Assembly (NCBI RefSeq): GCF_055900595.2
Contig: NZ_CM148325.1
Length of the DNA: 64,000 nucleotides
Direction: 5' to 3' (one strand)
Shown: positions 34,960 to 37,062 of the stretch, piece by piece
Numbering within the stretch: position 1 is the stretch's first letter
Layout: each line of letters starts with the position of its first letter
Made by a program: the position numbers and the translations under genes
The notes under the pieces: model-generated
Told to the model about the DNA's origin: nothing
What the model saw: only the letters and a program-made list of their open reading frames with translations
Databases searched by the model: none

Positions 34960-35748
<789 letters not shown>

Positions 35749-35776
35749 ACAGCTGTTGAAATGGCGAGACAGAACT

Positions 35777-35950
35777 TTACTGGCTCGCCGCAGCCAACTC
35801 TTCTTCTGACAGCCCGGTAAAGCGCATGATGTCTGCAAGAGGGACTCCGGATTACAGCATTCTTTTGGCGATATCCAGGGCTTCCAGGCGTCGACCCAAT
35901 AAATAACCAATCAGGTAACTAATAAGATATTCTCTTTCTGCATCCGTCAT
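35777..35950 (-). pseudogene. Remnant copy of an Rpn-family C-terminal tail, interrupted by an in-frame TAA
   Basis: Minus-strand translation MTDAEREYLISYLIGYLLGRRLEALDIAKRML*SGVPLADIMRFTGLSEEELAAASQ* parallels the last ~54 aa of the adjacent rpnA product ([54 protein letters not shown]); the DNA segments also align by eye at roughly two-thirds identity. Confidence 0.55.
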
Positions 35951-35967
35951 TAAAACCATCCTTAACG

Positions 35968-36861
35968 TTATTGATGATTTATTTCAGCAAGGTCTTCAAC
36001 CGTCAGGCTGGTAAATCGCAGAACGTCCTCAAGAGAGACTCCGGCATCCAACATGGTTTTGGCAATATTTAGGGCGTTGGTACGTATACCTTTCTGAAAC
36101 CCCTCTTGCCGCAATCTTTCCGCAATAGTCATTAAACTCTCCTTGTGTTTCGGTGAACGTTCGGCCACACCATCGATAAAATCATTAAAACGTACTGCAT
36201 CGCCAGTTTGCAGTATGTAATTAAACAGCCCTTTGATTTGTCTGTCATTAGCGTATCCACTACTTAATAAGCAGGCCATTTGCTCTACCAGCCCCATCAG
36301 GTCGCGTTGACGTATATGTTTTTGGATTAACTCCAGCAGCGCCATACGTCGGTGCTGCATGATTTCATCATCAGGCATGACAGTGACATCAATCAGCGGG
36401 AATGCAGAGGCATAAAGCTGTCTGGCCAGTTTGGGATCGGCGAAACAATCCAGCCAACACAGTGAATAGGGATATGGGCTTTCAATGCCGTGGTAAAACA
36501 ACAATGGCACCACCATCGGCAACGTTTTGTATCCGGCATCCAGGTGATTTTGCATTGCGGCAATGGCGTAACGCATCATGCGAAATGCGATCAGTTTGTT
36601 TGAGGTGCTTTGATGTTCAATCAGACAATAGATATATCCCGGTCCTTGTTCCGTTTTCACCGACCACAGCACGTCGGAATAGCTTTCACGCAGATCGTCA
36701 TCAATAAAGCTGCTCGACTCCAGCTTGAGGGTTTTCATATCACAGAGCGCGTGAATAGGTGCCGGTAAATGGAACGCAAGAAAATCGCGCGCCGTCTCCG
36801 GTTGGCGTAAAAAGAGTTTGAACAGCGCATCGTGTGGGGTGGAACTCTGCTTTTTGCTCAT
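35968..36861 (-). CDS. rpnA: Rpn-family recombination-promoting nuclease (YhgA-like, PD-(D/E)xK)
   Basis: 297-aa ORF recognised as YhgA/RpnA; exact start codon uncertain by a few codons. Confidence 0.85.
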
Positions 36862-37062
36862 GGCGTTCCTTCACCTGTTGTTTGAATGCCGCGACTCTAC
36901 GCGCCACTCCACACCTGTGCATTAGCGAGTTTTCATCCCTGCGAGACGCTTTCAGAGGAACTTACGTTGTACTGCAAGAGTTGCATTATTATGGAAAGCC
37001 GCACGCAAAAAAGCCCGGTTGCAAACGCATACCGGGCTTTCAAAACAGGCAGTAAAACAAGG

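What the first reader, a model, noticed from the sequence alone, without database searches (positions are those of the whole stretch)
35777..35950. Rpn C-terminal-tail remnant duplicated immediately downstream of rpnA
The 170 bp between bioH and rpnA encode, on the rpnA strand, a diverged second copy of the last ~55 codons of an Rpn protein. It begins with its own ATG and is interrupted by one in-frame TAA. As I recall from recent work, Rpn nucleases are toxic and are restrained by small proteins translated from an internal start covering exactly this C-terminal tail. A separately encoded, now-broken tail copy next to rpnA could be a decayed stand-alone antitoxin-like gene or a relic of recombination between rpn paralogs.
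Basis: partly seen in the sequence, partly recalled or inferred. Interest (0 to 1): 0.5.

Follow-up and report, generated by a model that had tools for sequence, protein, structure and literature searches.

The report
Broken spare antitoxin gene beside rpnA
The 174 bases between rpnA and bioH are a second, separately started copy of the small antitoxin-like tail of the RpnA nuclease that a stop codon has cut short and that now drifts as a pseudogene; this kind of spare copy is already known for two sister genes, so it is a tidy but modest finding.

Summary
On the minus strand, 35777-35950 is a second copy of the RpnA C-terminal tail. It has its own AAGGA ribosome-binding site and ATG, and one in-frame TAA. 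The TAA is at 35852-35854, not 35862-35864.

It has the same architecture as the stand-alone "RpnSs" genes (ypaA/rpnE_Ss, rpnC_Ss) that Zhong et al. 2023 (PNAS) described downstream of rpnE and rpnC. Their main text reports none for rpnA.

- **Intact copies exist.** 57-codon versions (Pfam HTH_Rpn_C) sit at the same position in Escherichia ruysiae, with CAA where the window has TAA.
- **The stop is nearly fixed.** Among 5,426 complete E. coli genomes, 853 (16%; UTI89, E2348/69 and others) carry this tandem arrangement. Of those, 852 have T at the first position of the stop codon.
- **It evolves neutrally.** Both halves of the copy show nonsynonymous:synonymous 19:6, which is the neutral ratio. 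The expressed tail shows 0:7 and the nuclease core 8:63.
- **K-12 link.** Its last two-thirds is the same sequence as the real 3' end of rpnA in K-12 and about 80% of strains. The K-12 tail therefore looks like a head-of-tail-1/body-of-tail-2 fusion. Other fusion junctions also exist.

Verdict: a nonsense-inactivated rpnA_Ss, a new member of a known kind, of moderate-to-low interest.

The parts
35968..36861 (-). rpnA (297 codons), the full-length toxic nuclease RpnA_L, in the allele that carries 'tail 1'.
   Evidence: ORF. NCBIfam RpnA equivalog NF007361 scores 675.8 bits against a cutoff of 583. RefSeq annotates it as rpnA in the 100%-identical strain Z0117EC0005.
35968..36132 (-). Tail 1, the internal rpnA_S reading frame: [54 protein letters not shown]. 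This is the expressed, cognate antitoxin region of this allele.
   Evidence: The start corresponds to M244, the experimentally confirmed internal start of K-12 RpnA_S (PMC10400941). Among the 14 sampled alleles with the 165-nt tail 1 it shows 0 nonsynonymous and 7 synonymous polymorphisms. The 153-nt alleles show 2 nonsynonymous changes among three loci.
36139..36144 (-). AAGGAG ribosome-binding site of the internal rpnA_S start.
   Evidence: Read directly from the sequence. It covers the K240/E241 codons that Zhong et al. mutated to abolish RpnA_S.
35951..35967 (-). 17-nt spacer CGTTAAGGATGGTTTTA between the rpnA stop and the second tail. It contains a duplicated RBS (AAGGA, 35959-35963) 8 nt before the ATG.
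   Evidence: the spacer is present in all 19 tandem loci examined, with only one variable base. It is homologous to AAGGAGAGTTTA upstream of the internal start (repeat D2). The rpnE-ypaA junction in MG1655 has the same design.
35855..35950 (-). Tail 2, codons 1-32 (MTDAEREYLISYLIGYLLGRRLEALDIAKRML). This is the still-open part of the stand-alone rpnA_Ss copy and corresponds to helix 1 only.
   Evidence: The AlphaFold model of the intact homologue has helices at 3-17, 21-33, 38-45 and 49-56. Polymorphism is 7 nonsynonymous to 3 synonymous, including L25P and G19D.
35894..35929 (-). Three 12-nt (four-residue) units, YLIS-YLIG-YLLG, at the position of the hypervariable repeat of RpnS proteins.
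   Evidence: Read from the sequence. A database variant has four units (P0026). Zhong et al. place the repeats 8-20 residues after the initiating Met. The composition is atypical, being mostly hydrophobic. TRF did not call the array.
35852..35854 (-). In-frame TAA (codon 33), the inactivating nonsense codon.
   Evidence: The codon is CAA (Gln) in E. ruysiae-type intact genes, GAA in two metagenome alleles and TAT in one. T is at its first position in 852 of 853 tandem-allele complete E. coli genomes; CAA is in none. All 14 inspected complete genomes have TAA.
35777..35851 (-). Tail 2, codons 34-57 plus the final stop (SGVPLADIMRFTGLSEEELAAASQ*). This is the untranslated remainder, helices 2-3 of the HTH_Rpn_C bundle.
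   Evidence: It is identical to residues 26-49 of RpnA_S in PDB 7TH0. Polymorphism is 12 nonsynonymous to 3 synonymous.
35750..35883 (-). Segment orthologous to the true 3' end of rpnA in K-12-type strains, plus the short flank up to bioH.
   Evidence: Megablast gives 92-94% identity to annotated rpnA in DH5alpha, O157:H7 and others. Pairwise alignment.
35894..36099 (-). 206-nt segment present in this allele and absent from K-12-type rpnA. It contains the body of tail 1, its stop, the spacer and the head of tail 2.
   Evidence: MAFFT alignment of the window against DH5alpha. Full-length matches occur in 853 of 5,426 genomes only.
34978..35748 (+). bioH, convergent neighbour. Its stop lies 28 nt from the stop of tail 2.
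   Evidence: The rpnA-bioH pair is listed among convergent overlapping transcript pairs in K-12 (PMC12288877).

Best explanation
The feature is a nonsense-inactivated 'rpnA_Ss'. This is a stand-alone downstream duplicate of the rpnA_S cassette (ribosome-binding site, ATG and the about 55-codon HTH_Rpn_C tail), which in Rpn systems encodes the small antitoxin that binds and blocks the full-length nuclease.

Shown:
- It is a duplicate of the RpnA tail including the RBS and start.
- Intact 57-codon versions occupy the identical position in E. ruysiae.
- In the E. coli lineages that carry the tandem arrangement (16% of complete genomes), codon 33 is TAA.
- Both halves of the copy accumulate changes at the neutral nonsynonymous:synonymous ratio, while the neighbouring expressed tail and the nuclease core are under strong purifying selection.

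Inferred:
- It arose by tandem duplication of the tail cassette, as proposed for rpnC_Ss and rpnE_Ss.
- A CAA-to-TAA transition then truncated the product at the end of helix 1, removing the two short helices of the three-helix bundle. Any peptide still made from the retained RBS and ATG is a 32-residue lone helix that most likely does nothing.
- The two tails recombine. Collapse of the tandem at different in-register points gives single-tail alleles. The K-12 RpnA tail equals the head of tail 1 ([11 protein letters not shown]) joined to the body of tail 2 (EQSKALHIAKIMLESGVPLADIMRFTGLSEEELAAASQ). The direction of that particular event, fusion by deletion versus insertion into a K-12-like allele, is not settled.
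For: - **Anatomy.**
- **Similarity.** BLASTP E=2e-13 to tail 1. PDB 7TH0 RpnA_S at E=8e-14. NCBIfam hits are only the RpnA equivalog, positions 254-292, and the general Rpn family model TIGR01784.
- **Intact homologues.** Proteins P0001-P0010 are 57 aa with precomputed Pfam PF27070 HTH_Rpn_C. They are encoded 17 nt after rpnA and convergent with bioH.
- **Population.** 853 of 5,426 genomes carry the tandem. 852 carry T at the first position of the stop codon and none carry CAA. All 14 inspected complete genomes have TAA.
- **Selection.** Tail 2 shows N:S 19:6 against a neutral expectation of 0.76 (binomial p=1.0). This differs from the core at 8:63 (Fisher p=4e-9) and from tail 1 at 0:7 (p=5e-4). 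Variants include a helix-breaking L25P.
- **Structure.** The model ends helix 1 at residue 33, exactly at the stop.
- **Known precedent.** Zhong et al. describe RpnSs genes and their loss by deletion or fusion. The MG1655 rpnE-ypaA junction has the same duplicated-RBS design.
- **Fusion alleles.** O145 strain RM12275 has ...DVLRFT|GLSEEELAAASQ. L096 links YLLG|EQSKALHIAK.
- **Annotation.** PGAP calls the feature a pseudogene with an internal stop in one genome.
Against: - The RBS, the ATG and the reading frame on both sides of the stop are intact in every complete genome inspected. The TAA is nearly fixed rather than one of many lesions. A retained function for the 32-residue peptide therefore cannot be excluded on sequence alone.
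- The N:S counts rest on 17-19 haplotypes and 25 changes.
- Intact E. ruysiae copies also differ mostly by nonsynonymous changes. The neutral-looking pattern could therefore partly reflect the diversifying selection reported for RpnS tails rather than loss of function.
- No expression data exist for a strain with this allele.
- Which arrangement is ancestral is unresolved. E. ruysiae has the tandem form, while E. whittamii has the K-12-type single tail.
Confidence: 0.8

Rival explanations
1. The truncated 32-codon ORF is a functional micro-protein. It would be a lone helix-1 peptide with an unusual hydrophobic YLIx repeat. It would still be translated from its own RBS and would modulate RpnA_L/RpnA_S oligomerisation or act elsewhere, with the TAA fixed by selection.
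For: The RBS and ATG are conserved in all 19 loci. The TAA is nearly fixed, at 852 of 853. Helix 1 is the dimerisation helix of RpnA_S, and repeat number tunes partner specificity. Gene callers repeatedly predict the 32-aa ORF (P0014-P0049).
Against: Codons 1-32 show N:S 7:3, indistinguishable from neutral (p=0.71) and different from tail 1 (p=0.01) and from the core (p=2e-4). Variants include L25P and G19D. Helix 1 of tail 2 (EYLISYLIGYLLGRRLE) has little similarity to helix 1 of the resident RpnA_L ([14 protein letters not shown]), whereas Zhong et al. found that a single-repeat mismatch abolishes neutralisation. There is no match in NCBIfam or PADLOC.
Confidence: 0.1
2. The tandem is derived rather than ancestral. 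A K-12-like single-tail rpnA received an incoming tail segment by recombination. The new tail took over, and the resident tail was pushed downstream as an orphan, as happens with displaced C-terminal modules of polymorphic toxins. Under this reading the remnant was never an independently functional gene in E. coli.
For: The 3' 130 nt of the remnant is 92-94% identical to the functional K-12-type tail. That similarity is hard to keep if the copy had drifted for long. E. whittamii has the single K-12-type tail. A third arrangement places a quite different tail (HRQGVQQGVQQG...) upstream of a tail1/tail2-type copy (L098/L099), which looks like stacking of new tails in front of old ones.
Against: The 206-nt extra segment starts inside one tail and ends inside another, and it carries a duplicated RBS and ATG. 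Any donor must therefore already have had a tandem arrangement. Intact tandem genes exist in E. ruysiae. Several independent in-register fusion junctions are simplest to explain as collapses of a tandem. No donor was found on plasmids.
Confidence: 0.25
3. The remnant is a relic of recombination between different rpn paralogs (rpnB-E), that is, a piece of another paralog's tail.
For: All Rpn tails share the HTH_Rpn_C fold and the [11 protein letters not shown] head. Chimeric RpnA/RpnB-like cores appear among metagenome proteins (P0065, P0067, P0068).
Against: The intact homologue hits only the RpnA equivalog model and the general Rpn family model TIGR01784. It does not hit the other paralog-type model that the full-length RpnA matches (NF007418). 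Residues 26-49 of K-12 RpnA_S are identical to the remnant. The nucleotide match in E. coli genomes is to one place per genome, the rpnA locus.
Confidence: 0.03

Closest known systems
RpnSs genes: ypaA (rpnE_Ss) downstream of rpnE in K-12, and rpnC_Ss in some E. coli strains (Zhong et al. 2023, PNAS, PMC10400941)
   Same: - Sits immediately downstream of, and on the same strand as, its rpn gene.
- Starts with a duplicate of the internal RBS plus ATGAC.
- Encodes a second copy of the HTH_Rpn_C tail that is most similar to the tail of its own upstream gene.
- Carries four-residue (12-nt) units in helix 1.
- Can be lost by fusion with the upstream gene.

In MG1655 the rpnE stop is followed by AAGGAGAGATTA and then the ATG of ypaA. 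Here the rpnA stop is followed by CGTTAAGGATGGTTTTA and then ATG.
   Different: - It belongs to rpnA, for which the paper's main text reports no downstream copy. The supplement was not available.
- It is interrupted by a nonsense codon in essentially all E. coli carriers and evolves neutrally, whereas YpaA protein was detected.
- Its repeat units (YLIS/YLIG/YLLG) are mostly hydrophobic, instead of one hydrophobic plus three charged or Gly residues.
RpnA_S, the intragenic antitoxin of K-12 RpnA (PDB 7TH0)
   Same: Residues 26-49 of RpnA_S are identical to the post-stop part of the remnant, and residues 11-49 align at E=8e-14. The three-helix bundle is the same in the model of the intact homologue.
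   Different: RpnA_S is translated from inside rpnA and shares its sequence with the toxin. The remnant is a separate cistron with a different helix-1 head. It is truncated at the position equivalent to E25 of RpnA_S.
Orphan or displaced C-terminal modules downstream of polymorphic toxin genes (CDI cdiA-CT/cdiI, Rhs); comparison from general knowledge, not tested
   Same: Variable C-terminal modules lie stacked downstream of a conserved gene body. They share a homologous junction that allows recombination to swap which module is attached.
   Different: The Rpn modules are about 55-codon antitoxin or oligomerisation tails, not toxin-immunity pairs. No evidence was obtained here that swapping is a selected mechanism rather than a by-product of homology.

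Membership tests
RpnSs (stand-alone downstream RpnS homologue) | Located directly downstream of an rpn gene, on the same strand, with a short spacer. | tested here: met
   A 17-nt spacer follows the rpnA stop, on the same strand. This compares with 12 nt for rpnE-ypaA.
RpnSs (stand-alone downstream RpnS homologue) | Own start codon and ribosome-binding site, homologous to the internal start of the upstream gene. | tested here: met
   AAGGATGGTTTTAATGAC aligns with AAGGAGAGTTTAATGAC at 82% over 22 nt (repeat D2). It is conserved in 19 loci.
RpnSs (stand-alone downstream RpnS homologue) | Encodes an HTH_Rpn_C (PF27070) / DUF4351-type tail that is most similar to the tail of its own rpn gene. | tested here: met
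   Precomputed PF27070 is recorded on the intact homologues P0001-P0010. Only the RpnA equivalog and the general Rpn family model are hit in NCBIfam. PDB 7TH0 matches at E=8e-14. The local Pfam copy lacks PF27070, so that scan was uninformative.
RpnSs (stand-alone downstream RpnS homologue) | Four-residue (12-nt) repeat units in helix 1 whose number varies between strains. | tested here: met
   YLIS-YLIG-YLLG lies at residues 8-19. A four-unit variant is P0026. The composition is atypical, and TRF did not score the array.
RpnSs (stand-alone downstream RpnS homologue) | Intact reading frame giving a full three-helix small protein. | tested here: not met
   TAA is at codon 33 in the window and in 14 of 14 inspected complete E. 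coli genomes. T is at the first position of that codon in 852 of 853. The frame is intact only in E. ruysiae-type and rare metagenome alleles.
RpnSs (stand-alone downstream RpnS homologue) | The protein is synthesised and binds or neutralises an RpnL nuclease. | not testable with these tools
   This needs tagging or ribosome profiling plus toxicity or SOS assays in a strain with this allele. Published data are for K-12, which lacks the copy.
Pseudogene (non-functional remnant) | A disabling lesion relative to intact orthologues. | tested here: met
   CAA, GAA or TAT in intact copies against TAA here. The stop removes helices 2-3.
Pseudogene (non-functional remnant) | Neutral substitution pattern. 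| tested here: met
   N:S is 19:6, against a neutral expectation of 0.76 (p=1.0). The contrasts with the core and with tail 1 are significant. The sample is small.

The most novel reading that the evidence does not exclude
The bioH-proximal end of rpnA is a 'stack-and-collapse' cassette site. Spare tails, silent or stand-alone, are kept next to the toxin gene, and recombination between the attached and spare tails repeatedly re-tips the nuclease. Because toxin and antitoxin share the tail, this switches toxin-antitoxin pairing specificity in one step. On this reading the well-studied K-12 RpnA_S would itself be such a recombinant, and the truncated copy would be a reservoir, or a residual helix-1 modulator, rather than junk.
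Probability: 0.15. Interest if true: 0.6.

Novelty: new member of a known kind. Interest (0 to 1): 0.35.

Why it matters
**Catalogue.** This adds rpnA to the rpn genes that have, or had, a separately encoded second antitoxin-like tail.

**Timing of decay.** That copy is already dead in the E. coli lineages that carry it, which include prominent extraintestinal and enteropathogenic strains. It is still intact in E. ruysiae.

**Origin of the K-12 tail.** The RpnA tail used for the crystal structure and biochemistry in K-12 is the same sequence lineage as this downstream copy. It is joined to the head of the other tail at the hypervariable repeat position.

**Consequence for allele diversity.** Tail diversity at this locus is therefore generated largely by recombination between tandem tails, not only by expansion of repeats.

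**Annotation.** Most RefSeq genomes leave these 219 bases between bioH and rpnA unannotated.

Tried and rejected
- **Local Pfam scan** of the intact homologue gave only a chance hit, because that library copy lacks PF27070. I relied on the precomputed annotation instead.
Only one informative outgroup came back, E. whittamii. The ancestral state could therefore not be reconstructed.
- **PADLOC** has no model that matches RpnA or the small proteins.
- **The promoter scan** found no sigma-70-like site in 35600-37000. The hairpin after the tail-2 stop is no better than shuffled sequence, z=-1.1. Nothing can be said about transcription from sequence alone.
- **TRF** did not detect the three 12-nt units.
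- **Rfam** shows nothing in the remnant.
- **Plasmid search** found no donor of the tail-2 head. The only two hits are chromosomes mislabelled as plasmids.
- **Search for an intact allele in complete E. coli genomes** found none. The CAA-centred 55-mer gave no match. An L016-type query found nothing closer than the window-type allele, at 94.3% identity.
- **The third tail type** (L098) has no close match (60-80% identity at best) in complete E. coli genomes.
- **Supplementary files** of Zhong et al. were not available. I cannot exclude that an rpnA downstream copy is listed there.

Full report
**Setting.** The window is Escherichia coli. It is 100% identical across the queried bioH-rpnA interval (window 35749-35967 and 35884-36110) to strain Z0117EC0005. 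bioH lies at 34978-35748 on the plus strand. rpnA lies at 35968-36861 on the minus strand, followed by feoC and feoB. The finding concerns the 219 bases between the two convergent genes.

**What is in the sequence.** On the minus strand, an ATG at 35948-35950 opens a frame that reads MTDAEREYLISYLIGYLLGRRLEALDIAKRML, then TAA, then SGVPLADIMRFTGLSEEELAAASQ, then TAA. The other two frames are closed.
The count of 32 codons is right.
- Eight bases before the ATG is AAGGA. The 17-nt spacer back to the rpnA stop aligns with the AAGGAG-AGTTTA-ATG that precedes Met244 inside rpnA.
- Zhong et al. 2023 showed experimentally that Met244 and that ribosome-binding site give the small protein RpnA_S, which binds and blocks the toxic full-length nuclease (PMC10400941).
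- The feature is therefore a second complete copy of the rpnA_S cassette, not just of its coding tail.

**Not a chance resemblance.**
- Two in-register direct repeats link it to the tail of rpnA: 91 nt at 73% identity and 22 nt at 82%.
- BLASTP gives E=2e-13.
- The sequence of the RpnA_S crystal structure (PDB 7TH0) matches at E=8e-14 and is identical over the last 24 residues.
- The only NCBIfam models hit by the intact homologue are the RpnA equivalog, at its C-terminal positions 254-292, and the general Rpn family model TIGR01784.

**Relation to other strains.** Megablast of the intergenic region against 5,426 complete E. coli genomes found it in full in 853. In about 4,500 others, including K-12 derivatives and O157:H7, only window 35750-35883 matches, and there it is the annotated 3' end of rpnA itself. 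A pairwise alignment with DH5alpha shows collinearity except for 206 nt (35894-36099) that K-12 lacks. That segment holds the body of the window's attached tail ('tail 1'), its stop, the spacer and the head of the downstream copy ('tail 2').
- The K-12 tail reads [49 protein letters not shown]. That is the head of tail 1 joined to a tail-2-type body at the hypervariable repeat position.
- Carriers of the tandem form include UTI89, APEC O18, an ST1193 isolate and E2348/69. From general knowledge these belong to phylogroup B2; I did not test that.

**Intact versions exist.** I searched the protein database with tail 2 after replacing the stop by Glu. It returned ten 57-residue proteins at 86-98% identity carrying the precomputed Pfam domain PF27070 (HTH_Rpn_C). 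Some are labelled E. ruysiae and some E. coli.
- Their contigs show the same layout: feoB, feoC, rpnA, 17 nt, the 57-codon gene, then convergent bioH.
- Codon 33 is CAA in the E. ruysiae-type genes, GAA in two metagenome alleles whose tail-2 body is K-12-like, and TAT in one. A single C-to-T transition explains the window's TAA.

**The stop is nearly fixed in E. coli.** I designed a 55-mer centred on the T of TAA. Every 28-base megablast seed in it must contain that base. It hit 852 of the 853 tandem genomes. The same probe with C hit none. All 14 complete genomes whose sequence I inspected have TAA. An L016-type query found nothing closer than the window-type allele, at 94.3% identity.

**Is the truncated copy still under selection?** I examined 19 tandem loci. 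For tail 2 I left out the two alleles that carry a K-12-like patch.

| Region | Nonsynonymous | Synonymous |
|---|---|---|
| Nuclease core | 8 | 63 |
| Tail 1 (165-nt alleles) | 0 | 7 |
| Tail 2, codons 1-32 | 7 | 3 |
| Tail 2, codons 34-57 | 12 | 3 |

- The tail-2 total of 19:6 equals the neutral expectation from site counts (0.76; binomial p=1.0). It differs from the core (Fisher p=4e-9) and from tail 1 (p=5e-4).
- The pre-stop part includes G19D in eight genomes and a helix-breaking L25P in two.
- An AlphaFold model of the intact homologue (mean pLDDT 80.5) has helices at 3-17, 21-33, 38-45 and 49-56. The stop falls exactly at the end of the long first helix and removes the two short helices of the bundle.
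- The simplest reading is a young pseudogene. Its frame is still tidy because little time has passed, and because it stays homologous to the functional K-12-type tail.
- Two caveats apply. The sample is small. The intact E. ruysiae copies also differ mainly by replacement changes, so part of the pattern could be the diversifying selection typical of these tails.

**Recombination between tails.** Several alleles are in-register chimeras.
- An O145 strain has a single tail [38 protein letters not shown]. About 44 genomes share this tail-1-type partial match.
- A metagenome tandem allele has tail 2 reading ...YLLG|EQSKALHIAKIMLESGV, which links the K-12 'EQSK' unit to tail 2.
- Two independent contigs carry a third arrangement. 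A quite different attached tail, with canonical GVQQ repeats, is followed by a downstream copy that is itself a tail1/tail2 chimera.
- Tail 1 also varies by one four-residue unit (TNAL) and tail 2 by one YLIS unit.
- All forms share the last about 100 nt next to bioH.

[quoted passage not shown] It suggests repeated stacking and collapse of tails. I could not settle which state is ancestral for the K-12 type. E. ruysiae has the tandem form, while E. whittamii has the single K-12-type tail on an IS-disrupted gene.

**Comparison with what is known.** Zhong et al. describe stand-alone second copies downstream of rpnE (ypaA, protein detected) and rpnC. They show that each derives from its own upstream gene.
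- In MG1655 the rpnE stop is followed by AAGGAGAGATTA and then the ypaA ATG, a duplicate of the internal start region. This is the same design as here.
- The paper's main text contains no 'RpnA_Ss'. Its supplement was not available.
- RefSeq leaves the region unannotated in nearly all genomes. One record calls it a 'transposase' pseudogene with an internal stop.
- The feature meets the positional, start-site, domain and repeat criteria of an RpnSs gene. It fails the intact-frame criterion. Expression and binding cannot be tested here.
- It is best filed as a nonsense-inactivated rpnA_Ss: a new member of a known kind.

**Other checks.** No Rfam family, promoter-like site or convincing terminator lies in the remnant. 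No plasmid carries it. rpnA-bioH is listed among convergent overlapping transcript pairs in K-12, so the remnant sits in a zone likely transcribed from both sides.

**Verdict.** Interest is moderate to low. The most useful by-product is the link between the downstream copy and the K-12 RpnA tail.

Noticed in passing
L008 485-1115 (E. coli O145 RM12275-C1, between rpnA and bioH): A mazE/mazF-type toxin-antitoxin pair is inserted exactly between the rpnA stop and bioH, in a strain whose rpnA has a fused single tail. The toxin is annotated as frameshifted. The rpnA-bioH gap appears to be a small hotspot for toxin-antitoxin cargo.
   Followed up: partly
L017 2651-3900 (E. whittamii) and L098 1-200: rpnA is split after about codon 215 by an IS200/IS605-type element encoding a 376-aa TnpB-like protein. 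The same insertion end is seen in a metagenome contig that carries a different pair of tails.
   Followed up: partly
L098 291-657 and L099 (metagenome contigs): A third tail arrangement at the same locus. The attached tail is [62 protein letters not shown] downstream copy follows with a perfectly duplicated AAGGAGAGTTTAATG start. This tail has no close match (60-80% identity at best) in the 5,426 complete E. coli genomes.
   Followed up: partly
L003 1526-2119 (E. coli Nissle 1917): rpnA is annotated as an N-terminally truncated pseudogene with a K-12-type tail. Only the tail (antitoxin) part and the C-terminal core remain.
   Followed up: no
L108 2817-3002 (MG1655 ypaA, b4543): RefSeq annotates ypaA as a pseudogene, although Zhong et al. 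detected the tagged protein. Annotation of these small tail genes is inconsistent.
   Followed up: no
Proteins P0065, P0067, P0068: Metagenome proteins whose N-terminal or middle parts are RpnA-like and whose other parts resemble a different Rpn paralogue. They are either real inter-paralogue recombinants or assembly chimeras.
   Followed up: no
window 36909-37042 (-), feoC-rpnA intergenic region: A sub-threshold Rfam match to a Burkholderia sRNA candidate (Bp2_287; 24.5 bits against a gathering score of 70; E=0.005). It is probably chance, but it lies in the about 200-nt untranslated region upstream of rpnA.
   Followed up: no
L002 (Z0117EC0005), L006, L007 annotation tables: RefSeq locus tags skip one number between rpnA and bioH in several tandem-allele genomes (for example RS21100 then RS21110). 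This suggests a feature was once called there and later dropped.
   Followed up: no
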